This document shows, piece after piece, positions 10,296 through 55,420 of a DNA stretch of 64,000 nucleotides. The notes under the pieces were generated by a model. It searched no databases. It had not been told where the DNA came from and saw only the letters and a list, made by a program, of their open reading frames with translations. Origin of the DNA: an uncultured Candidatus Actinomarina sp. (GTDB taxonomy: Bacteria > Actinomycetota > Acidimicrobiia > Actinomarinales > Actinomarinaceae); assembly GCA_902628045.1 (NCBI GenBank), contig CACOLU010000003.1, positions 14,039 to 78,038 on the forward strand, in the 5' to 3' direction. The number at the start of each line of letters is the position of its first letter. Within the stretch, counting starts at the first letter, position 1. The translations under genes were made by a program, and so were the position numbers.

Positions 10296-11201
10296 GTGGC
10301 TAAAGTTACATTTGAGAATAGAACAGTAGTTGTTACAGGAGCAGGTAATGGGCTTGGTAAAGCGTATGCTTTAGATTTAGGTGCCCGTGGTGCAAAAGTA
10401 GTTGTTAATGATTTAGGTGGTGCTGTAGATGGATCTGGTTCTGGAAGTACGCCGGCTGATGAAGTTGTAAATGAAATCATAGCTAATGGAGGAGAGGCTG
10501 TTGCTAATTACGACTCAGTTGCAACTAGGGAAGGTGGAGAATCTATTATACAAACTGCGATTGATAATTTTGGCACAGTAGATGCAGTTGTAAACAATGC
10601 TGGTATTTTAAGAGATAAAAGTTTTGCAAACATGTCAGAAGAAGAGTTATCTCTAATTATAGATGTGCATCTAAAAGGCACCTTTTATGTTTCTCAGCCT
10701 GCTTTTAAGGTAATGAAAGAAAATGCATATGGAAGGATAGTAAATGTGGCTTCACCTTCTGGTTTATTTGGTAATTTTGGTCAGTCAAACTATGGTGCGG
10801 CAAAAATGGGTATAGTAGGACTAACTAACGTATTAGCAATTGAAGGTGCAAAATATAATATAAAAGTAAATGTCATTGCTCCAACAGCTTATACACGAAT
10901 GACAGAAGCACTTCTTCCAGAAGATGTAGGAAAATTATTTAGTGCAGAATTAGTAACTCCGATGGTTTCTTATCTAGCATCTGAGGCTTGTGAGCCAAGT
11001 CATGAAATTTTTGGAGTTGCTGCTGGGCGTTTTGCTCGTATTGGAATTATTACTCATGAAGGATATGTAAATACAAGTGCAACTGCCGAAGACATAAATG
11101 ACAATATTGAAGAAATAAGAAATATTGAAAATGGCACGTATCCTCTTAGTAACGAGGATGAGCTGATGATAATTCAGAAAGCTATACAAGGTAATCAATA
11201 A
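10296..11201 (+). CDS. Short-chain dehydrogenase, MFE-2/HSD17B4-like (probable (3R)-hydroxyacyl-CoA dehydrogenase)
   Basis: TGAGNGLGKAYA Rossmann motif, NNAG, and the catalytic YGAAK motif. Overall resemblance to the dehydrogenase domain of type-2 multifunctional beta-oxidation enzymes. Confidence 0.75.
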   Translation: MAKVTFENRTVVVTGAGNGLGKAYALDLGARGAKVVVNDLGGAVDGSGSGSTPADEVVNEIIANGGEAVANYDSVATREGGESIIQTAIDNFGTVDAVVNNAGILRDKSFANMSEEELSLIIDVHLKGTFYVSQPAFKVMKENAYGRIVNVASPSGLFGNFGQSNYGAAKMGIVGLTNVLAIEGAKYNIKVNVIAPTAYTRMTEALLPEDVGKLFSAELVTPMVSYLASEACEPSHEIFGVAAGRFARIGIITHEGYVNTSATAEDINDNIEEIRNIENGTYPLSNEDELMIIQKAIQGNQ

Positions 11202-11225
11202 GATAAATTTGATGTATAATTTCGT

Positions 11226-12443
11226 ATGGTAAAAACTGAAATTAAATACTCTGATGCAGAACAACTGGTAAGAGACAAATTAGATGAACTAATTCAATTC
11301 AGAAATGAAACTGATGACATTAAAGAATTTTGGGGTAAACAATTCGATTTAGGACTTGCTTGGGTTCAATTTCCAGAAGGCGCAGGCGGATTAGGATTAA
11401 ATCCAAAATATCAACTTATAATTACTGAAACTCTAAGGAATGAAGGAATTTCTCAACAAAACAGGATTGCAAATATTCTTGGTATAGGAATGGGTGCACC
11501 AACAATTGTGGAGTATGGCACTCCAGAACAAATTCAACAATACTTAAGACCAATGTTCACTGCTGATGAGATATGGTGCCAATTATTTTCAGAGCCAGGC
11601 TCTGGATCAGATTTAGCAAGTTTATCAACTAAAGCTATAGATGATGGTGATGGTTTTATTGTAAATGGTCAAAAAGTTTGGACAACATTAGGGCATGTAG
11701 CTAAATGGGGCCTAATAGTGACCAGGACAGATCCAGATGTTCCAAAGCATAGGGGATTAACTTTTTTTATAGTTGACATGGAGTCTGATGGTGTAGACGT
11801 AAGGCCTCTTAGACAAATAACTGGTGAAGCAGAGTTTAATGAGGTTTATTTTACTGACGTTAAGGTTCCAAAAGAAAATATTTTAGGAGGCCTTGGAGAT
11901 GGCTGGAGAGTTTCTCTTGCTATATTAATGAATGAAAGAGTTGCTATTGGAGGCAATGTTCGTGAAAGAGGAAGTGGTGCGCCAGGTCACTTAGTTCAAC
12001 TTTGGAATGATAAAAAACTTGATGATCCAGTCTCAAGAGATAAGTTGATAAAACTTTGGATTGAACAGGAAGCAGTGAGATTAACAAATGTTAGAGCATT
12101 TGAAAATAGAGAAAAAGGAACACCTGGCCCAGAAGGCTCTACTAGCAAATTATATGAAGCTGAAATCAACAAAGCATCATATGAGTTTGGTATGGAAATG
12201 CTTGGGAATGATGCGTTATTATTTCCAAGAGGATATGAGTTGACTCAACCTGAATTAAATTTTGAAAATGAGACTTTTGGTTTTACGGATACGCAAAGTC
12301 TTTTTCTAAGATCAAGAGCAAATTCAATAGAGGGTGGAACATCTGAAATAATGAGAAATATTATTGCTGAGAGAGTTCTAGGGCTTCCAAGTGAGCCAAA
12401 ACTAGATAAAGATAAAGCTTGGAAAGATATTCCAAGATCTTAG
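11226..12443 (+). CDS. Acyl-CoA dehydrogenase
   Basis: 405 aa. Motifs CQLFSEPGSGSDLASL and GQKVWTT, with C-terminal IEGGTSEIMRNIIAERVLGLP. Confidence 0.9.
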   Translation: MVKTEIKYSDAEQLVRDKLDELIQFRNETDDIKEFWGKQFDLGLAWVQFPEGAGGLGLNPKYQLIITETLRNEGISQQNRIANILGIGMGAPTIVEYGTPEQIQQYLRPMFTADEIWCQLFSEPGSGSDLASLSTKAIDDGDGFIVNGQKVWTTLGHVAKWGLIVTRTDPDVPKHRGLTFFIVDMESDGVDVRPLRQITGEAEFNEVYFTDVKVPKENILGGLGDGWRVSLAILMNERVAIGGNVRERGSGAPGHLVQLWNDKKLDDPVSRDKLIKLWIEQEAVRLTNVRAFENREKGTPGPEGSTSKLYEAEINKASYEFGMEMLGNDALLFPRGYELTQPELNFENETFGFTDTQSLFLRSRANSIEGGTSEIMRNIIAERVLGLPSEPKLDKDKAWKDIPRS

Positions 12444-48831: not shown

Positions 48832-49303
48832 TCAAAACTATTTTCTTATAGGCAAATTAGGTAAACCACATTCCTTAAAAGGTTTTCAATATATAAATAT
48901 TGAACACTTTTTTCGTAATTTTGATTTAAAAGAAATTACATTACAGATTGATGGCGTTAATTTTGTAGTTGAGGAATTTAAAAGACATTTAAAAAATAGA
49001 AATTTAATTAAATTTCATTCTTATGACACGATTGAGTCAATTAGTGAATTAAGAAATATGGATGTAAAAATTAATAAAAATTTACTCAGTACATTTATTA
49101 ATGAAGATAAATTACCTTGGCCTGGTTTTTTTACAGGTCAAGAATTAGAATGTAACAATTACAAGTTGTTAAGTTATGAGGTGTTAAATAACATTTATTT
49201 TTGCAAAATTAGTGGTATAGAAATGAGTGTCCCGTATAACAGTAGTTTTTTTAATTTCAAAAACAATAATTTAACACTATTAGATAGCAGCTTAACTATT
49301 TAA
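48824..49303 (+). CDS. rimM: 16S rRNA processing protein RimM
   Basis: 159 aa. IGKLGKPHSLKGF N-terminal motif and conserved position after rpsP-KH. TTG start. Confidence 0.8.
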   Translation: MTNQNYFLIGKLGKPHSLKGFQYINIEHFFRNFDLKEITLQIDGVNFVVEEFKRHLKNRNLIKFHSYDTIESISELRNMDVKINKNLLSTFINEDKLPWPGFFTGQELECNNYKLLSYEVLNNIYFCKISGIEMSVPYNSSFFNFKNNNLTLLDSSLTI

Positions 49304-49996
49304 CCATCCAAACAATTTTATGCTTACAGGATCTTCAAGCATGTTCTCTGGATGCCATTGTATTCCTACTGCATCCCATCCACTTGTTACTTCTACACCC
49401 TCAATAACACCATCAGATGATTTAGCAGTTATCTTTAAGTCTTGACCTAGTTTGTTTATTGCCTGATGATGAATTGAGTTGACTTGTATTTTATTTTCCT
49501 GAATTATTTTATATAATTTTGAATTATCCTCAATATTTATATCATGAATATGCGAACGTGCATCATCAAAAGGTTTGTCATGATCAACTTTAGTGAATCC
49601 ATTATCTTTAAGATCTTGATATAGTGTTCCGCCTTTATAAACATTCAGTAATTGATGTCCTCTACATATAGCAAGTGTTTTAACATTGTGTTCTTCTGCA
49701 GATTTAAGCATTGCTAATTCAGTGTTATCCCTATGATCTGAAATTCTTATTGTTTTTTCAAGCTTTTCTTCTCCATAAGAATTTGGGTTAATATCACCAC
49801 CACCTGAAATTATTATCGCATCAAATTTTGATACGTCTATTGATTTTGAATTTTCGTGTGGACCAAAAATTACGGCAGTATTTCCATAATTGTTACATGC
49901 TTTAACAAAATCTGTATTTATAACAACACATGGAATATTACCAGGTGCCATGTCTACATTTTTAAGACCAGTAGATATTCCTATTAATTTACTCAT
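49292..49996 (-). CDS. Class I glutamine amidotransferase-like peptidase C26 (gamma-glutamyl-GABA hydrolase PuuD-like)
   Basis: Catalytic LAICRGHQLLN (Cys) and GIQWHPE (His/Glu). The start is taken at MSKLIGIS. Confidence 0.8.
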   Translation of the reverse strand: MSKLIGISTGLKNVDMAPGNIPCVVINTDFVKACNNYGNTAVIFGPHENSKSIDVSKFDAIIISGGGDINPNSYGEEKLEKTIRISDHRDNTELAMLKSAEEHNVKTLAICRGHQLLNVYKGGTLYQDLKDNGFTKVDHDKPFDDARSHIHDINIEDNSKLYKIIQENKIQVNSIHHQAINKLGQDLKITAKSSDGVIEGVEVTSGWDAVGIQWHPENMLEDPVSIKLFGWLNS

Positions 49997-50405
49997 GGAT
50001 AAAAACACACTGAACTTCTACACATACATTTAATGGAAGGCTGGAAACACCAACAGCTGATCGTGTTGATTTTTCATTAAAGTATTCTGAAAGTTTATCT
50101 GTAAATCCGTTAAGGACTTTTGCGTGGTCCTCAAAACCTTCGTTTGCATTTACAAAACCAATAACATTAACAGGCTGCAAGTTTTGAATAGACCCATGTT
50201 TTTTGATTGTTGCAATTGTAAGTTCAGCACATAACTCTGCAGCTTTATAAGCTTCATCTATAGAAATCTCAGTTGGTACTTTTCCTACATATTTATATTC
50301 TTCAGTAATAGGAACATGTCCAGATGTGTAAACGTAGTTTCCAATTTTTTTATAGGTAACATAATTTCCAATAGCTTCAGGAGCGATTGGAAAATCTTTA
50401 TCCAT
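49989..50405 (-). CDS. RidA/YjgF/L-PSP family protein
   Basis: 138 aa. GNYVYTSGHVP ... RSAVGVSSLPLNVCVEV pattern of the RidA fold. Confidence 0.8.
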   Translation of the reverse strand: MDKDFPIAPEAIGNYVTYKKIGNYVYTSGHVPITEEYKYVGKVPTEISIDEAYKAAELCAELTIATIKKHGSIQNLQPVNVIGFVNANEGFEDHAKVLNGFTDKLSEYFNEKSTRSAVGVSSLPLNVCVEVQCVFIHE

Positions 50406-51402
50406 TATTTAAAAGATTTCCTATAAGATCCACAACTCTGTTTGAATAACCCCATTCATTGTCATACCAGCATACTACTTTGACATGATTTCCATCTAGC
50501 AATTGAGTTGATGATGCATCGTAAATACTTGAATGTGGATTATTTAATATATCAGTTGATACAAGCGGAATGTCGGAATACTCTAAAATACCCTTTAGCT
50601 CGTTATCTGAAGCGTGTTTCACAGCTAAATTTATATCTTCAATTGTTACTGACTTTTCTAATTCAACTACTAAATCAACAACACTTCCATTTGGTACTGG
50701 AACTCTCATAGCCATTCCATCTAATTTACCGTTTAATTCAGGTAAAACCATACCAACAGCTTTAGCTGCACCTGTTGAAGTAGGGATTATATTTTGGGTA
50801 GCACTTCGGCCTCTTCTAAAGTCACTATGGGTAGTTTCAGCTAATGCTTGGTCGTTAGTATATGCATGAACTGTGGTCATAAGACCAGATTTGATTCCAA
50901 AATTATCATCTAGAACTTTAGCTATAGGAGCTAAACAATTTGTAGTACATGAAGCATTAGATACAATTTTATCATCAGGATTCAAATCTCCATCATTCAC
51001 ACCCAGAACTATAGTTGCATCAATTTCATCTTTTGGAGGAACAGTAAGCAATACTTTTTTAGCACCTGCATTCAGATGCTTGTTAAGAGATTCATTATCT
51101 CTAAAAATTCCTGTCGATTCAATTACAACATCAACTTCTAACTCACTCCATGGAAGTTCAGCAGGATCTTTTATCGAAGTAAGCTTTATTATTCTTTCAT
51201 CAACTAAAAGTTTATCTCCATCAACTCGCACATCACTATCTAATATGCCCATAACAGAGTCGTGTTTTAAAAGATATGCAAGGTTTTCATAATTGCCCAA
51301 ATCATTAATGGCAACGACATTGATATCAGAATTACTTTCAACAATAATTCTTAATATAGAACGTCCAATTCTACCAAAACCATTAATGGCTACATTACCC
51401 AT
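50398..51402 (-). CDS. gap: Glyceraldehyde-3-phosphate dehydrogenase (type I, catalytically complete)
   Basis: 334 aa. Motifs INGFGRIGR, SNASCTTNCLAP (Cys152), TTVHAYT, STGAAKAV, MRVPVP and WYDNEWGYS. Confidence 0.95.
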   Translation of the reverse strand: MGNVAINGFGRIGRSILRIIVESNSDINVVAINDLGNYENLAYLLKHDSVMGILDSDVRVDGDKLLVDERIIKLTSIKDPAELPWSELEVDVVIESTGIFRDNESLNKHLNAGAKKVLLTVPPKDEIDATIVLGVNDGDLNPDDKIVSNASCTTNCLAPIAKVLDDNFGIKSGLMTTVHAYTNDQALAETTHSDFRRGRSATQNIIPTSTGAAKAVGMVLPELNGKLDGMAMRVPVPNGSVVDLVVELEKSVTIEDINLAVKHASDNELKGILEYSDIPLVSTDILNNPHSSIYDASSTQLLDGNHVKVVCWYDNEWGYSNRVVDLIGNLLNNG

Positions 51403-52407
51403 CTAAAACACCTGCCCCAGTTTTTTTACTGTATCGACAATTCTAGCCGCATAACCCCATCCATTATCGAACCATATAATGAGCTTAATTTTTTTATTTT
51501 TAATAACCATAGTGGCTAATCCATCTACTAAACCAGAGAGTGTACTTCTTACAACATCTGAGGAAACAATTGGATCATACGTTAATCCAATAATATTTTT
51601 TAATTCTGATTTAGAAGCATTCTCAATAATTCTATTAATATCTTCAATACTGGACTCGTTTTTGATATCAATTGTCAAATCAACTGTACTTCCATCAGGA
51701 ATGGGTACTGTCATTGAAGATGAAGCAATTTTACCTTCAATGAATGGAAGAACATTTGCTATAACTTCAGAGGATTTAGTAATATTTGGGATAATATTTT
51801 CACCAGCTGCTCTGTTAAGTCTGAATCCTTCACCTGCAACATCTGCTAAACGATTTGAATTTGAATATCCGTGAACAGTTGTAAGAAATGCTCTTTCAAC
51901 CCCAACTTTACTTTCTAAAGCTTTAAGAATAGGTGCAACTGCATTTGCTGTATTAGAACCTAAGGAAAATGCATTTGAGTTTAAATTTATATCTTCATCA
52001 TTTGCACCAGGGACATATATTTGAATATCTTTAAAATCTTCTGGAGTTGATGCTACGATAACTTTTTTACAACCTTTTGATAAATGTTTTTCAACATCTT
52101 CTTTTGTTTTAGGTTTGCCAGTTGCAAGAACTACGACATCAGTATTGAGTTTATCCCATTTAGCATCATCGCCATCTTTCCAAGTATTAAAAACTATTTC
52201 TTTACCATTTACAACAATACCTGTCTCGGAATCTTCAATTTCTGCATCAAGCTGTCCATATATAGTGTCGTACTTTAATAAATAAATTAAATTTGCTTTG
52301 TCGGCAGTATCTGAAATTGACACAATGTTAATGTCTTCATCATTCAATGTTTGTCTAAATAGATCTCGGCCTATTCTTCCAAATCCAACTAGTGAAATAT
52401 TTGTCAT
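51403..52407 (-). CDS. GAPDH-like paralog lacking the catalytic cysteine (probable pseudoenzyme or neofunctionalised)
   Basis: 334 aa and colinear with gap. VGFGRIGR, TTVHGYS and WFDNGWGYA are retained. The active-site SCTTNC is SNTANA (Asn152; codon AAT at 51952-51954, checked). TGAAKAV is replaced by TKSSEVI, and MRVP by MTVP. Confidence 0.85.
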   Translation of the reverse strand: MTNISLVGFGRIGRDLFRQTLNDEDINIVSISDTADKANLIYLLKYDTIYGQLDAEIEDSETGIVVNGKEIVFNTWKDGDDAKWDKLNTDVVVLATGKPKTKEDVEKHLSKGCKKVIVASTPEDFKDIQIYVPGANDEDINLNSNAFSLGSNTANAVAPILKALESKVGVERAFLTTVHGYSNSNRLADVAGEGFRLNRAAGENIIPNITKSSEVIANVLPFIEGKIASSSMTVPIPDGSTVDLTIDIKNESSIEDINRIIENASKSELKNIIGLTYDPIVSSDVVRSTLSGLVDGLATMVIKNKKIKLIIWFDNGWGYAARIVDTVKKLGQVF

Positions 52408-52476
52408 TAACCCTCACAAGACTATCGAAAAATTGTTGTTACAATCAACTAATAATATACCTTAAAACAATAATTT

Positions 52477-53595
52477 ATGACAGAATTAACAAGAAATATT
52501 CATGATTCAATCTTTGGATCTATGTCCACTGAAGAACTATTAGCTAAAGCATTTGAAAAAAAAGTGAATTACTTTGGAGATAATATAACTTATAGCCCCA
52601 AAGTTTTTATTCCGTTAACAACAATGTGTAGAGATAATTGTGGATACTGTACATTTGTAAAATCTCCAAAACAAGGTGGTACCTATTTGAATCAAGCAGA
52701 TGTTATATCAATAGCTCGAGCTGGTGACAACGCTGGTTGCTATGAGGCTTTGTTTACATTAGGGGATAAGCCAGAACTTAAATGGAATTTTGCTTTAAAC
52801 CAACTTAACGAGCTAGGCCACTCCTCAACTCATGATTACCTAATTAATTCAATGAAGGTTGTTAATGAAAGATTTAATATATTTCCACATGCAAATCCTG
52901 GCTTGATGAGCCGAAAAGAAATTAAAGACTTAAAAAAATATTCACCGTCTGGTGGAATTATGATTGAATCATTTTCAAAAAATATACATGAAAAAGGAAA
53001 AGCTCATTACAAAACTAAAACAAAACATATTGATTTAAGGTTAAAAACTCTAAACTATGCATTCGAAGAGAAATATCCAGTTACGACTGGATTACTTCTT
53101 GGAGTAACTACAACAAAAGAAGAAATGGTAAACGATATTGCCAATTTAATAACTTATATGAATGAGAATTTAGCAATTCAAGAAGTAATATTACAAAATT
53201 TTAGAGCAAAGAAAAACACATTAATGAAAAATGAATCTGAAATAACGAACGATTTATTTTTAAGAATTATTGCAACAACTCGAATTTATGCTCCTGCACA
53301 TATTTCTTTACAAGTTCCACCAAATCTTTCACCAGATATAATGATATTTTTAAAAAGTGGAATTAATGATTTAGGTGGAATATCTCCACTAACTATAGAT
53401 TGGGTAAATCCAGACCATTTGTGGCCAAATATAAATAAATTAAAATTAGATGTTTCAAGCACAGGCCAGGTTCTTAAAAAAAGGCTTCCCGTTTATCCTG
53501 AATTTATAAAAAAAGAATGGTTAAACAGTAAAATTTACGAAAAAGTGAATAATATTATTGATACAGATGGATATCCAAAAGAGCAAGATGAATAA
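52477..53595 (+). CDS. cofG: FO (7,8-didemethyl-8-hydroxy-5-deazariboflavin) synthase subunit CofG, radical SAM
   Basis: 372 aa. CRDNCGYC radical-SAM triad at aa 51-58. Overall CofG-like and adjacent to cofH. Confidence 0.8.
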   Translation: MTELTRNIHDSIFGSMSTEELLAKAFEKKVNYFGDNITYSPKVFIPLTTMCRDNCGYCTFVKSPKQGGTYLNQADVISIARAGDNAGCYEALFTLGDKPELKWNFALNQLNELGHSSTHDYLINSMKVVNERFNIFPHANPGLMSRKEIKDLKKYSPSGGIMIESFSKNIHEKGKAHYKTKTKHIDLRLKTLNYAFEEKYPVTTGLLLGVTTTKEEMVNDIANLITYMNENLAIQEVILQNFRAKKNTLMKNESEITNDLFLRIIATTRIYAPAHISLQVPPNLSPDIMIFLKSGINDLGGISPLTIDWVNPDHLWPNINKLKLDVSSTGQVLKKRLPVYPEFIKKEWLNSKIYEKVNNIIDTDGYPKEQDE

Positions 53596-55420
53596 TATAT
53601 CATTTCTTCGAATCAGACCGTGTGATAACGACAATGAAATATATTTAAACTCAAGAAAAAAAGAGGGCACTTCTACATTTTTATTAAAAAGTAATGTATC
53701 AATTAACACAAATGAATTAAACAAAAAAGGATTTCAAACTGTATCTAGAGATATAGATACTGATTCAGATGCGTGGATAATTACTGACAAAAATTGGGAA
53801 AAATTTAAATCAATAAATCCAAAAAGACTAATTTATATTTATAAAAATAATATTGAAACTGCACTAGAGATCATTGATAGATTAAAGCCGCATACTATAT
53901 TAATCTCATCTAGTTCAGACCTTCAATTTCTCAAGTCCATCAACTCAAAAACTAATTTTATTACATCAACTTATGTTGAAACAATTGAAGAAGCAATAGA
54001 ATTTGCCAATGCAGGAGTTTCAGATTTACTTCTTAGAGACTGGAGCTCAGAACAAATATTAGAACTTCAAAAGGTTGAAGGTTTAAATTTCTATGAAAGA
54101 ACATTGTTATCACCTATATTTTCAATTGATGAGGCAAGAATTGAATTTGATAAAGAACGATTTTTTAGATTTTTGAATACAAGAAATGTTAGAGGTTTTA
54201 AAAGAAAAGAAACAAGCTGGTCTCCGGGAAGTGGAAAAAATATTCCAAGTTTAGATAATTTTGTTTTCAATAATAGAAGCCAAATTAGTCACTCAGAAAT
54301 TGACTCATTGTTAGAAAGAATATTAGATGGTTACCAAATTAGTAATAACGACTTAAGAATCTTGTTTAATACAGCAGGAAAGAAAATAAATGATATAGCA
54401 GCTGTGGCGAATGAGTTAAATTTTATAAAAAACGGAAATAATGTTTCATATGTTAAAAATAGAAATATTAATTATACAAATCAATGTTATTACAAATGTG
54501 GTTTTTGTGGATTCTCAAAAGGCCCCAACAGTTTAAATTTAAAGGAGAAACCTTACGCTATTGATATACAGGAAGTAGTTGATAGAACTGTTGAGGCATA
54601 TGAAATGGGTGCATCCGAGGTATGTTTACAGGGAGGAATTCATCCCGACTATACGGGAGATTTTTATCTAAAAATGGTTGAAGATATAAAATCAGCAGTT
54701 CCTAAAATGCATATTCATGGTTTTACTCCTTTAGAGATATGGCAAGGTGCAGAGACAATTAACTTAAGTGTTGAAGACTATTTAAGTCAATTAAAAAAAG
54801 CTGGACTTAATACACTCCCAGGCACTGCAGCTGAAATTTTAGATGACAGAGTTAGGAAATATTTGTGTCCCGACAAAATTACTTCTTCGCAATGGGCATA
54901 TGTAATGGAAGTGGCACATAATTTGGGTATTAAATCAACTGCAACAATTATGTTTGGTCACATTGATGATATTGATTCTTGGGTTAATCATTTTTCATTA
55001 ATTAAAAATGTTCAAAATAAAACACATGGATTTACTGAAGTTGTACCACTTCCTTTTGTTCATATGGGTTCTCCAATATATTTAAGAGGTAAAAGTATGC
55101 CAGGACCTACTTGGGATGAGATCGTTCTTATACATTCTTTAGCTCGGATTTACTTTGTAAATTTAATAGATAACATTCAAGCAAGTTGGGTGAAGCTTGG
55201 TCATGATGGTGCAGGTAAGCTTTTGCATGCTGGCGTAAATGATCTTGGTGGTACTTTAATTAATGAAAACATAAGCCGAGCATCAGGAGCAGACCATGGA
55301 CAAGAAACTACACAAGATCAATTCATACAGATAATTGAGTCCGAGAATAAAAACCCTGTTTTGAGAAATACACTGTACACAGAGTTTATAGAAACTAAAA
55401 ATTCTTTAGAAAAAAGATGA
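53558..55420 (+). CDS. cofH: FO synthase subunit CofH, radical SAM, with a ~230-aa N-terminal extension
   Basis: CYYKCGFC triad at aa 310-317, followed by GGIHPD and a CofH-like C-terminal half. The start is uncertain (53558, 53567 or 53588); 53588 gives an 8-nt overlap with the cofG stop. Confidence 0.8.
   Translation: MIQMDIQKSKMNNISFLRIRPCDNDNEIYLNSRKKEGTSTFLLKSNVSINTNELNKKGFQTVSRDIDTDSDAWIITDKNWEKFKSINPKRLIYIYKNNIETALEIIDRLKPHTILISSSSDLQFLKSINSKTNFITSTYVETIEEAIEFANAGVSDLLLRDWSSEQILELQKVEGLNFYERTLLSPIFSIDEARIEFDKERFFRFLNTRNVRGFKRKETSWSPGSGKNIPSLDNFVFNNRSQISHSEIDSLLERILDGYQISNNDLRILFNTAGKKINDIAAVANELNFIKNGNNVSYVKNRNINYTNQCYYKCGFCGFSKGPNSLNLKEKPYAIDIQEVVDRTVEAYEMGASEVCLQGGIHPDYTGDFYLKMVEDIKSAVPKMHIHGFTPLEIWQGAETINLSVEDYLSQLKKAGLNTLPGTAAEILDDRVRKYLCPDKITSSQWAYVMEVAHNLGIKSTATIMFGHIDDIDSWVNHFSLIKNVQNKTHGFTEVVPLPFVHMGSPIYLRGKSMPGPTWDEIVLIHSLARIYFVNLIDNIQASWVKLGHDGAGKLLHAGVNDLGGTLINENISRASGADHGQETTQDQFIQIIESENKNPVLRNTLYTEFIETKNSLEKR

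What the first reader, a model, noticed from the sequence alone, without database searches (positions are those of the whole stretch)
50398..52407. Tandem GAPDH genes, the upstream copy lacking the catalytic cysteine and phosphate-site residues
Seen: two 334-aa GAPDH-fold genes abut with zero intergenic bases (TAG at 51403-51405, ATG at 51400-51402). They align colinearly. The downstream copy has every catalytic signature. The upstream copy keeps the NAD-binding GFGRIGR, His (TTVHGYS) and WFDNGWGY motifs. It has Asn in place of the nucleophile Cys152 (SCTTNC becomes SNTANA; codon checked). It also has Thr in place of the phosphate-site Arg (MRVP becomes MTVP), and TGAAKAV becomes TKSSEVI. Established: the thiohemiacetal/thioester mechanism of GAPDH requires that cysteine. 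Inference: this is a conserved full-length pseudoenzyme or a neofunctionalised dehydrogenase or binding subunit, possibly forming hetero-oligomers with the active copy in a streamlined genome that should not keep junk.
Basis: partly seen in the sequence, partly recalled or inferred. Interest (0 to 1): 0.65.

Follow-up and report, generated by a model that had tools for sequence, protein, structure and literature searches.

The report
Cysteine-less GAPDH partner gene, widespread
A marine actinobacterium carries, directly upstream of its normal GAPDH gene, a well-conserved sister gene that has lost the catalytic cysteine and phosphate-binding residues; the same coupled gene pair occurs in about ten bacterial phyla, so these bacteria probably run this glycolytic step with a two-protein enzyme that nobody appears to have described.

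Summary
Two 334-aa GAPDH-fold genes abut on the minus strand. The upstream one (gapX, 52407..51403) has Asn for Cys149, Thr for Arg231, Leu for Arg195, Lys for Gly209 and Gly for Glu314 (B. stearothermophilus numbering). The downstream one (gapA) is fully canonical.

gapX is neither an error nor decay. Asn and Thr are invariant in 112 relatives (68-99% identity). dN/dS is 0.06-0.12. Metatranscriptome contigs cover it.

The pair is not peculiar to this genome. An "X" paralog lies immediately upstream of an "A"-type canonical GAPDH in MAGs labelled as about ten phyla. Of 80 complete pairs, 62 have overlapping stop and start codons. X is monophyletic (99/100 bootstraps) and co-diverges with A (r=0.88). 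It has lost Arg231 almost everywhere. Ancestral X had Cys149, and it was lost at least six separate times (to N, S, A, V, I, P or G).

In X, constraint is lifted at the catalytic and phosphate loops but kept at the NAD site, His176 and the inter-subunit S-loop.

Best explanation (about 0.6): X is a non-catalytic, NAD-binding subunit that forms a hetero-tetramer with A. Physical association was not tested. I found no prior description.

The parts
51403..52407 (-). gapX: 334-aa GAPDH-fold paralog lacking Cys149, Arg195, Gly209, Arg231 and Glu314 (B. stearothermophilus numbering). Proposed non-catalytic partner subunit.
50398..51402 (-). gapA: canonical type I phosphorylating GAPDH of the 'A-type' clade (TVPPKDEID in place of the usual SAP motif). 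All catalytic residues are present.
   Evidence: (TIGR01534 444 bits > 367)
51400..51405 (-). Junction: gapX stop TAG (51405..51403) directly followed by gapA ATG (51402..51400). Zero spacer, which implies translational coupling.
   Evidence: the equivalent junction overlaps by 1-8 nt in 62 of 80 pairs elsewhere
51952..51954 (-). Codon AAT = Asn152, at the position of the nucleophile Cys149.
   Evidence: invariant Asn in 112 relatives
51709..51711 (-). Codon ACA = Thr233, at the position of the phosphate-site Arg231.
   Evidence: Thr invariant in Actinomarinales; Asn in 81 of 93 X proteins overall
51817..51819 (-). Codon CTT = Leu197, at the position of Arg195. The flanking Arg194 and Arg197 equivalents are kept.
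   Evidence: numbering
51775..51777 (-). Codon AAA = Lys211, at the position of Gly209 in the Pi-site loop (TGAAK becomes TKSSE).
51460..51462 (-). Codon GGA = Gly316, at the position of Glu314 (WYDNEWGY becomes WFDNGWGY). A family-wide X signature.
51871..51873 (-). Codon CAC = His179 (His176 equivalent). Retained, and invariant in 93 of 93 X proteins.
52366..52386 (-). GFGRIGR dinucleotide-binding motif of gapX. Retained, and Asp33 (Asp32 equivalent) is also kept.
52446..52483 (-). Putative promoter and transcript 5' end. -35-like CTGTCA (52483..52478) and -10-like TATATT (52459..52454). Metatranscriptome contigs from three runs end at 52446, 39 nt upstream of the gapX ATG.
   Evidence: The count of promoter-like sites in the region is not above chance; only the positional coincidence is suggestive.
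49989..50405 (-). RidA/YjgF-family gene overlapping the gapA stop by 8 nt. Part of the same operon in Actinomarinales only.
49292..50008 (-). Peptidase C26 / class I glutamine amidotransferase gene overlapping the RidA gene by 20 nt. Last gene of the Actinomarinales operon.

Best explanation
gapX is the non-catalytic member of an ancient two-gene GAPDH module. A tandem duplication of an A-type GAPDH gave a paralog (X) that lost the substrate-phosphate site (Arg231->Asn/Thr, Glu314->Gly, Pi loop rewritten). The now useless nucleophile Cys149 was then lost repeatedly; it is Asn in Actinobacteria, including this genome. X still folds as a GAPDH subunit. It keeps the NAD pocket, His176 and the S-loop that forms the inter-subunit contact of GAPDH tetramers. 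It is made in step with A by translational coupling from one mRNA. I infer that X and A assemble into a mixed tetramer, most simply A2X2. In that tetramer only the A subunits turn over glyceraldehyde-3-phosphate. X would serve as an NAD(H)-binding structural or allosteric subunit that A has come to depend on. Shown here: sequence lesions, conservation, purifying selection, co-inheritance, coupling, transcription, glycolytic gene context. Inferred: NAD binding, hetero-oligomer formation, dependence of A on X.
For: 1. X lacks residues that established GAPDH chemistry requires and falls below every NCBIfam equivalog cut-off.
2. It is under purifying selection. dN/dS is 0.06-0.12 in unsaturated Actinomarinales pairs, and 0.03-0.05 for gapA. 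Asn152 and Thr233 are invariant in 112 relatives.
3. Every Cys-less relative found by exhaustive HMMER search whose contig extended past the gene's 3' end (P0125, P0127, P0129, P0130, P0136) is followed at once by a GAPDH gene; the partner is canonical in the two cases where the contig reaches its active site.
Nearly all hold X then A on one strand. Of 80 complete pairs, 62 have stop/start overlaps of 1, 4 or 8 nt.
5. Starting from the A side gives the same answer: two of three A-like representatives have an X gene overlapping upstream.
6. X is monophyletic in 99 of 100 NJ bootstraps and is closer to A than to other GAPDHs (0.95 against 1.23). X-X and A-A distances correlate at r=0.88.
7. Position 149 is C31/N23/S21/A8/V4/I3 of 93. 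Parsimony puts Cys at the root, with at least 6 losses.
8. Column entropy in X is high at the active-site segment (1.42, against 0.05 in A) and the Pi loop (2.16, against 0.28). It is low at the GxGxxG motif (0.62), the Asn313 region (0.76) and the S-loop (0.95); the X mean is 1.59.
9. The AF2 model is a confident GAPDH fold (pLDDT 86.7; TM 0.93 to 1GD1). Only the S-loop is disordered in the monomer.
10. Metatranscriptome contigs cover both genes and span the junction.
11. Neighbouring genes in other phyla are PFK, PGK, class II aldolase, pyruvate kinase and glycerate-kinase-like genes.
Against: No direct evidence of a physical X-A complex exists. Coupling and co-inheritance would also fit two separate proteins acting in one pathway. 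His176, Ser148, Thr150, Arg194 and Arg197 are invariant or nearly so in X. A third of X proteins keep Cys149. X could therefore retain some ligand binding or a residual or different activity. I could not check whether A is the only GAPDH in these genomes. Start codons in the 120 loci were assigned by a heuristic, so individual spacer lengths are approximate. The RNA evidence is from assembled contigs of related strains (90-99% identity), and such libraries can contain DNA.
Confidence: 0.6

Rival explanations
1. X is a stand-alone, neofunctionalised NAD(P)-dependent enzyme or metabolite-binding protein. It would use His176 and the retained Ser148, Thr150, Arg194 and Arg197, without a thiol, on another substrate of the same pathway. 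Its link to A would be only operonic.
For: The NAD motif, Asp32, Asn313 and His176 are invariant or nearly so in 93 X proteins. Selection is strongly purifying. The gene context is glycolytic.
Against: The residues lining the substrate pocket are among the least constrained in X. Position 149 takes eight different residues, positions 151-153 vary, and the 208-216 loop has entropy 2.16, above the protein mean of 1.59. An enzyme with a defined substrate should conserve its pocket. In one lineage even the Asn313 motif is gone (L134).
Confidence: 0.2
2. X is a redox- or NAD(H)-sensing regulator that binds A, or another target, only transiently, in the manner of CP12 or Rex-type control. It would not be a stable subunit.
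For: The NAD pocket is retained. Cys149 is kept in about a third of lineages, and a reactive thiol could act as a redox switch there.
Against: Cys is dispensable in at least six lineages. Stop/start overlap suggests roughly equimolar production, which is more typical of a stable subunit than of a regulator. The S-loop interface element is conserved.
Confidence: 0.12
3. X is a decaying duplicate, or the Asn codon is a sequencing or assembly artefact.
For: None beyond the loss of catalytic residues.
Against: The gene is full-length and Asn152 is invariant in 112 independent metagenomic and single-cell sequences. AAT is two substitutions from a Cys codon. dN/dS is about 0.1. The gene is transcribed and retained in a roughly 1-Mb streamlined genome with conserved synteny.
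Confidence: 0.01

Closest known systems
Type I phosphorylating GAPDH (e.g. Geobacillus stearothermophilus GAPDH, PDB 1GD1)
   Same: Same fold (TM 0.93) and same length. 38-39% identity. Keeps the Rossmann GxGxxG motif, Asp32, His176, Asn313 and the S-loop. Descends from the same family.
   Different: Lacks Cys149, Arg195, Gly209, Arg231 and Glu314. Falls below the TIGR01534 cut-off. It cannot perform thiohemiacetal/thioester catalysis, according to established GAPDH enzymology.
Chloroplast A2B2 GAPDH (GapA/GapB hetero-tetramer)
   Same: A GAPDH made from two paralogous subunits in one tetramer. This is the architecture proposed here.
   Different: Both chloroplast subunits are catalytic, and GapB carries a regulatory C-terminal extension. 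X has no extension and no nucleophile. The chloroplast subunits are nuclear-encoded eukaryotic genes, not an operon. Basis: my own knowledge of the plant enzyme; not tested here.
'Prozyme' pseudoenzyme partners (trypanosomatid AdoMetDC/prozyme and deoxyhypusine synthase/DHSp)
   Same: A catalytically dead paralog kept under selection because it forms a hetero-oligomer with the active paralog (PMC6221367 and PMC3663545, abstracts seen).
   Different: Those are eukaryotic, lineage-restricted, unlinked genes with experimentally shown activation. Here the pair is bacterial, operonic and spread over many phyla, and the complex is only inferred.
Trypanosome flagellar GAPDH-like protein (TbGAPDHL)
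   Same: A GAPDH homolog predicted to be catalytically inactive, in which the cofactor site may be retained for ligand binding (PMC4106842).
   Different: It is a flagellar structural component interpreted as an evolutionary relic, poorly conserved among trypanosomatids, and not paired with an active GAPDH gene.
Erythrose-4-phosphate dehydrogenase (Epd) and ArsJ-associated GAPDH
   Same: Specialised bacterial GAPDH paralogs. They appear among the weak NCBIfam hits of gapX.
   Different: Both use the catalytic Cys. gapX is far below their cut-offs (205 against 530, and 247 against 450). There is no pdx or arsJ gene context.

Membership tests
Type I phosphorylating GAPDH (EC 1.2.1.12; TIGR01534) | Two-domain GAPDH fold (Gp_dh_N + Gp_dh_C) | tested here: met
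   Pfam E=6e-25 and 2e-39. AF2 pLDDT 86.7; Foldseek TM 0.93 to 1GD1.
Type I phosphorylating GAPDH (EC 1.2.1.12; TIGR01534) | Nucleophilic Cys149 | tested here: not met
   Asn (AAT) at this position. Invariant Asn in 112 relatives.
Type I phosphorylating GAPDH (EC 1.2.1.12; TIGR01534) | General base His176 | tested here: met
   His179 in gapX. 93 of 93 X proteins.
Type I phosphorylating GAPDH (EC 1.2.1.12; TIGR01534) | Anion sites: Ps (Thr179, Arg195, Arg231) and Pi (Ser148, Thr150, Thr208, Gly209) | tested here: not met
   Arg195->Leu, Arg231->Thr, Gly209->Lys and Thr179->Ser. Ser148, Thr150 and Thr208 are kept.
Type I phosphorylating GAPDH (EC 1.2.1.12; TIGR01534) | Score above the curated equivalog cut-off | tested here: not met
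   274.1 bits against a cut-off of 367.2. gapA scores 444.4.
Type I phosphorylating GAPDH (EC 1.2.1.12; TIGR01534) | NAD(P)-linked oxidation of glyceraldehyde-3-phosphate | not testable with these tools
   Needs an enzyme assay.
Pseudoenzyme partner subunit ('prozyme'-type dead paralog) | Paralog of an active enzyme encoded in the same genome | tested here: met
   38% identical to the adjacent gapA. X groups with the A clade rather than with other GAPDHs.
Pseudoenzyme partner subunit ('prozyme'-type dead paralog) | Loss of essential catalytic residues | tested here: met
Pseudoenzyme partner subunit ('prozyme'-type dead paralog) | Maintained by purifying selection and expressed | tested here: met
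   dN/dS 0.06-0.12. Metatranscriptome contigs cover the gene.
Pseudoenzyme partner subunit ('prozyme'-type dead paralog) | Co-inheritance and co-expression with the active paralog | tested here: met
   62 of 80 pairs have overlapping stop and start codons. Distance correlation r=0.88. An RNA contig spans the junction.
Pseudoenzyme partner subunit ('prozyme'-type dead paralog) | Physical hetero-oligomer with the active paralog | not testable with these tools
   No multimer prediction was available. Needs co-purification or a structure.
Pseudoenzyme partner subunit ('prozyme'-type dead paralog) | The partner changes the activity, stability or regulation of the active subunit | not testable with these tools
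   Needs biochemistry.
Chloroplast-type A2B2 GAPDH | Second subunit is catalytic and carries a CP12-like C-terminal extension | tested here: not met
   gapX is 334 aa, the same length as gapA, with no extension and no Cys149.
Erythrose-4-phosphate dehydrogenase (TIGR01532) | Equivalog score and catalytic Cys | tested here: not met
   205.5 bits against a cut-off of 530.55, and no Cys.

The most novel reading that the evidence does not exclude
The X subunit is not an inert scaffold. Its preserved NAD pocket, with His176, Ser148, Thr150, Arg194 and Arg197, would be a working ligand site. That site would give an obligate A2X2 GAPDH a property no homotetramer has. One possibility is built-in NAD+/NADH or 1,3-bisphosphoglycerate sensing that gates glycolytic against gluconeogenic flux. 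Another is a thiol-independent side reaction on a triose-phosphate derivative. Under this reading the heteromer is the sole GAPDH of abundant uncultured marine and sediment lineages (Actinomarinales, Marinimicrobia, Thermoanaerobaculia, sediment Desulfobacterales).
Probability: 0.2. Interest if true: 0.85.

Novelty: new variant of a known kind. Interest (0 to 1): 0.66.

Why it matters
GAPDH is among the most studied enzymes and is treated as a homotetramer in bacteria.

This work finds a conserved, translationally coupled pair of one active and one degenerate subunit. It occurs in about ten phyla, including very abundant ocean lineages with minimal genomes. If the two proteins assemble, a core glycolytic step there is run by a heteromeric enzyme that annotation pipelines collapse into 'two GAPDH genes'.

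Three consequences follow:
- Metabolic reconstructions and gene-copy counts for these lineages would need correcting.
- It would be a natural example of a dead paralog retained in central metabolism. That bears on GAPDH half-of-sites behaviour and on how paralog heteromers become entrenched.
- It offers a simple two-gene operon that can be expressed in E. coli to test these ideas.

X proteins are currently named 'type I GAPDH', 'NAD-binding domain-containing protein' or 'hypothetical protein', so a dedicated family model would improve annotation.

Tried and rejected
- **Sequencing error or pseudogene.** Rejected.
- **Epd or ArsJ-type GAPDH.** Rejected on scores and gene context.
- **Complex prediction.** No multimer tool was available. 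I considered a fused X-A chain and dropped it: a missing linker and an unpaired alignment would make the result uninterpretable.
- **First bootstrap script.** Timed out. I replaced it with my own numpy neighbour-joining code.
- **Monophyly of A.** A is not monophyletic with respect to X (0 of 100 bootstraps). X appears to arise from within or beside the A clade, so I do not claim reciprocal monophyly.
- **Literature searches.** Four searches and two papers read found no description of a bacterial Cys-less GAPDH partner. This covers only the held library.
- **Search for a cultured host.** Using a Desulfobacterales X as query returned only metagenomic and MAG sequences.
- **Limits of the genome scan.** Five of the 120 loci (L053, L065, L098, L107, L128) gave no GAPDH ORF of at least 150 aa. 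These may be locus-edge cases or chance matches; I did not follow them up.
- **Circularity of the scan pattern.** The pattern itself required the Gly314 motif. Family-wide Gly314 therefore rests on the pattern-independent members.
- **Neighbour analysis.** No gene besides A is conserved next to X across phyla.
Full report
**1. The observation**

The window (32% G+C) carries two 334-codon ORFs on the minus strand. I call them gapX (52407..51403) and gapA (51402..50398). The TAG of gapX is directly followed by the ATG of gapA.

Both proteins match the two Pfam GAPDH domains. They align end to end at 38% identity.

gapA has every catalytic signature and passes the NCBIfam type I GAPDH equivalog (444 bits against a cut-off of 367). 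gapX fails it (274 bits) and fails every other GAPDH-family equivalog.

I translated window positions into B. stearothermophilus numbering using the alignment to 1GD1/1NQ5 and the residue numbers in PDB titles. In that numbering, gapX has these differences:
- Cys149 -> Asn (AAT, two substitutions from a Cys codon)
- Arg195 -> Leu
- Gly209 -> Lys
- Arg231 -> Thr
- Glu314 -> Gly
- Thr179 -> Ser

It keeps the GxGRxGR motif, Asp32, Ser148, Thr150, His176, Arg194, Arg197, Thr208 and Asn313.

Its one slip is to count WFDNGWGY as an intact motif.

**2. Not an error and not decay**

A word-indexed search found more than 112 full-length relatives at 68-99% identity. They come from marine metagenomes, single-cell genomes and MAGs labelled Candidatus Actinomarina or Actinomarinales.
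- In all of them position 152 is Asn and position 233 is Thr.
- In a second genus (68% identity) the whole neighbourhood is the same: cofH-cofG divergent, then gapX-gapA-RidA-amidotransferase, with gapX and gapA overlapping by 8 nt.
- Nei-Gojobori dN/dS for gapX is 0.12 (window against L086, dS 0.65) and 0.08 (L076 against L103, dS 0.07). For gapA the values are 0.05 and 0.05. More distant pairs are saturated at synonymous sites.
- Contigs from four marine metatranscriptome runs lie on both genes. One spans the junction (51358-51510).
- Contigs from three of those runs end at 52446, seven bases downstream of a -10-like TATATT.

**3. The pair is a widespread module**

An exhaustive HMMER search of 1.84 billion representatives showed that the close gapX group collapses to a single full-length 50%-identity representative plus a few fragments. 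The next-best hits (36-44% identity) are enriched in GAPDH-like proteins with N, S, A, V or P at position 149 and no Arg231.

I looked up the contigs of six of these proteins:
- In five, a GAPDH gene starts within -4 to +38 nt of the stop. Where enough sequence is present, that gene has canonical SCTTNC.
- The sixth contig ends at the gene.

I then scanned one genome per GTDB species for the DNA pattern encoding W[FY]DNGWG. The record titles name Actinomycetota, Acidobacteriota (Thermoanaerobaculia, Holophagales, Ca. Multivorans), Neomarinimicrobiota, Eisenbacteria, Krumholzibacteriia, Desulfobacterales, Planctomycetota, Bdellovibrionales, Myxococcota, Fibrobacteraceae/Fidelibacterota and Gammaproteobacteria. 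These are submitters' labels.

In nearly all of these loci, two GAPDH ORFs lie head to tail. A weaker-scoring X comes first and a strong-scoring A second.

The spacing between X stop and A start in the 80 complete pairs is shown below. Start codons were assigned by a heuristic, but gene-caller coordinates show the same overlaps.

| Spacing (nt) | Pairs |
|---|---|
| -4 | 39 |
| -1 | 18 |
| -8 | 5 |
| 0 to +5 | 9 |
| longer | 9 |

I also approached the module from the A side. Two of the three database representatives that cluster with A have an X gene overlapping upstream by 4 nt. One of those X genes sits directly after pyruvate kinase.

**4. Anatomy of the X family**

In 93 X proteins:
- The NAD motif, His176, Arg194 and Arg197 are invariant or nearly so. 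Asp32 is kept as Asp in 90 and as Glu in 3.
- Arg231 is replaced by N (81), T (8), K (2) or S (1), with R in only one.
- Gly209 is replaced by N, W, K, D, F or H.
- Position 149 is C (31), N (23), S (21), A (8), V (4) or I (3), with a few P and G.

The 94 partner A proteins are invariant at all catalytic positions. They share a TVP[APS]KDEID motif.

The scan pattern forced Gly314. However, members found without the pattern also lack Glu314. One of them has even lost the Asp312-Asn313 motif.

An HMM built from 25 diverse X proteins retrieves 2,283 database proteins at E<1e-60. This count may include canonical GAPDHs. The top 120 are mostly Cys-retaining, and all carry generic GAPDH names.

**5. 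Evolution**

- In neighbour-joining trees of 72 X, 72 A and 60 other GAPDHs, X is a clade in 99 of 100 bootstraps.
- X plus A, plus three database representatives, form a group apart from other GAPDHs. Two of those three proved to be X-partnered A proteins. A itself is not separated from X.
- Mean corrected distances are X-A 0.95, X-other 1.23 and A-other 0.88.
- X evolves faster than A (48% against 65% mean pairwise identity). The two distance matrices correlate at r=0.88.
- Fitch parsimony on the X tree puts Cys at the root, with at least six independent losses and ten state changes. The Asn state unites Acidimicrobiia, Actinomarinales and one Holophagales MAG. Marinimicrobia have Ser or Ala, and Bdellovibrionales and Myxococcota have Ile.

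The order of events therefore seems to be:
1. Tandem duplication of an A-type gene.
2. Loss of the phosphate site in X.
3. Repeated erosion of the now unneeded nucleophile.

**6. Where constraint remains**

Column entropies for A and X:

| Region | A | X |
|---|---|---|
| Active-site segment (148-158) | 0.05 | 1.42 |
| Pi loop (208-216) | 0.28 | 2.16 |
| GxGxxG | 0.25 | 0.62 |
| Asn313 region | 0.35 | 0.76 |
| S-loop | 0.43 | 0.95 |
| Whole protein | 1.08 | 1.59 |

Selection on X has been released at the chemistry. It is kept at cofactor binding and at the loop that, in solved GAPDH tetramers, crosses to the neighbouring subunit. That last point is established structural knowledge, not tested here.

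The AF2 model fits this. It is a confident GAPDH fold (pLDDT 86.7, pTM 0.87; TM 0.93 to 1GD1). Only residues 182-206, the S-loop, have low confidence in the isolated chain.

**7. Context**

Beyond A, no neighbour is shared across phyla. The recurrent neighbours are glycolytic:
- phosphofructokinase downstream in 13 loci
- phosphoglycerate kinase
- class II aldolase
- a DUF4147/MOFRL glycerate-kinase-like gene
- pyruvate kinase

In Actinomarinales the operon continues with RidA and a peptidase-C26 amidotransferase.

**8. Interpretation**

The most economical reading is that X is a non-catalytic, probably NAD-binding subunit made stoichiometrically with A and assembled with it into a mixed tetramer. 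Its persistence even in 1-Mb genomes is explained if A has become dependent on it for assembly, stability or regulation. I give this about 0.6.

The rivals are:
- A free-standing new enzyme (about 0.2), weakened by the variable pocket.
- A transient regulator (about 0.12).
- Decay or artefact (about 0.01).

The physical complex is the untested step.

**9. Relation to known systems**

gapX belongs to the GAPDH superfamily by fold. It fails the defining catalytic features of type I GAPDH, Epd and ArsJ-type enzymes.

In logic it resembles the trypanosomatid 'prozymes' (abstracts seen). In architecture it resembles chloroplast A2B2 GAPDH, whose subunits are both active. A catalytically dead GAPDH-like protein is known from trypanosome flagella (PMC4106842), but it is unpaired and poorly conserved.

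I found no report of a bacterial Cys-less GAPDH partner in the searchable library.

**10. Verdict**

This is a real, conserved, expressed feature. It is a new variant of a known kind: a pseudoenzyme partner subunit, here in bacterial core glycolysis. Interest is about 0.66.

Noticed in passing
window 52477-55420 (+): F420 FO-synthase genes are split as cofG (372 aa) and cofH (620 aa), divergent from gapX. In cofH the radical-SAM domain only begins at residue 304. The first ~300 residues have no Pfam hit, and the ORF overlaps the end of cofG by 38 nt. The same 617-aa form occurs in Ca. Actinomarina (L002).
   Followed up: partly
window 49292-50405 (-): A RidA/YjgF-family gene and a peptidase-C26/class I amidotransferase gene follow gapA with 8-nt and 20-nt overlaps. 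This gives a four-gene overlapping operon that is conserved only within Actinomarinales. Why a RidA-type deaminase and a gamma-glutamyl hydrolase-like protein ride with GAPDH is unexplained.
   Followed up: partly
window 51384 -> 52084: Metatranscriptome contigs from two runs (X2, X3) show a joint that skips 699 bases, from the 5' part of gapA to the 5' third of gapX, with only 21 nt on the shorter side. It is probably an assembler chimera between the two paralogs, but I did not check it.
   Followed up: no
L134:1982-3004 (+): An X homolog found from the A side is far more degenerate. It has GLGHIGR instead of GFGRIGR, Ala at position 149, and WHSTLGH instead of WYDNEWGY, so NAD binding may be lost too. 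Its start coincides with the stop of a pyruvate kinase gene, and it overlaps its canonical partner by 4 nt.
   Followed up: partly
P0124 (2089 aa), P0142 (1455 aa), P0256 (1862 aa): Very long proteins contain one to four GAPDH-like stretches. P0124 has four. These may be multi-domain or tandem GAPDH fusions of unknown origin.
   Followed up: no
L002-L004: about 10367-12165: In three long Actinomarina assemblies, the uracil phosphoribosyltransferase and 'Metalloenzyme' genes next to the operon are called as two or three fragments in some assemblies and intact in others. These look like frameshift errors in the assemblies rather than biology.
   Followed up: no
L135/L136: 3001-4023: P0143, a canonical GAPDH that clusters near the A clade, stands alone. 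It has no X upstream and sits in a Bacteroidota-like context (TonB receptor, Por secretion tail, GH16). Either A-like enzymes can exist without X, or the clustering is spurious.
   Followed up: partly
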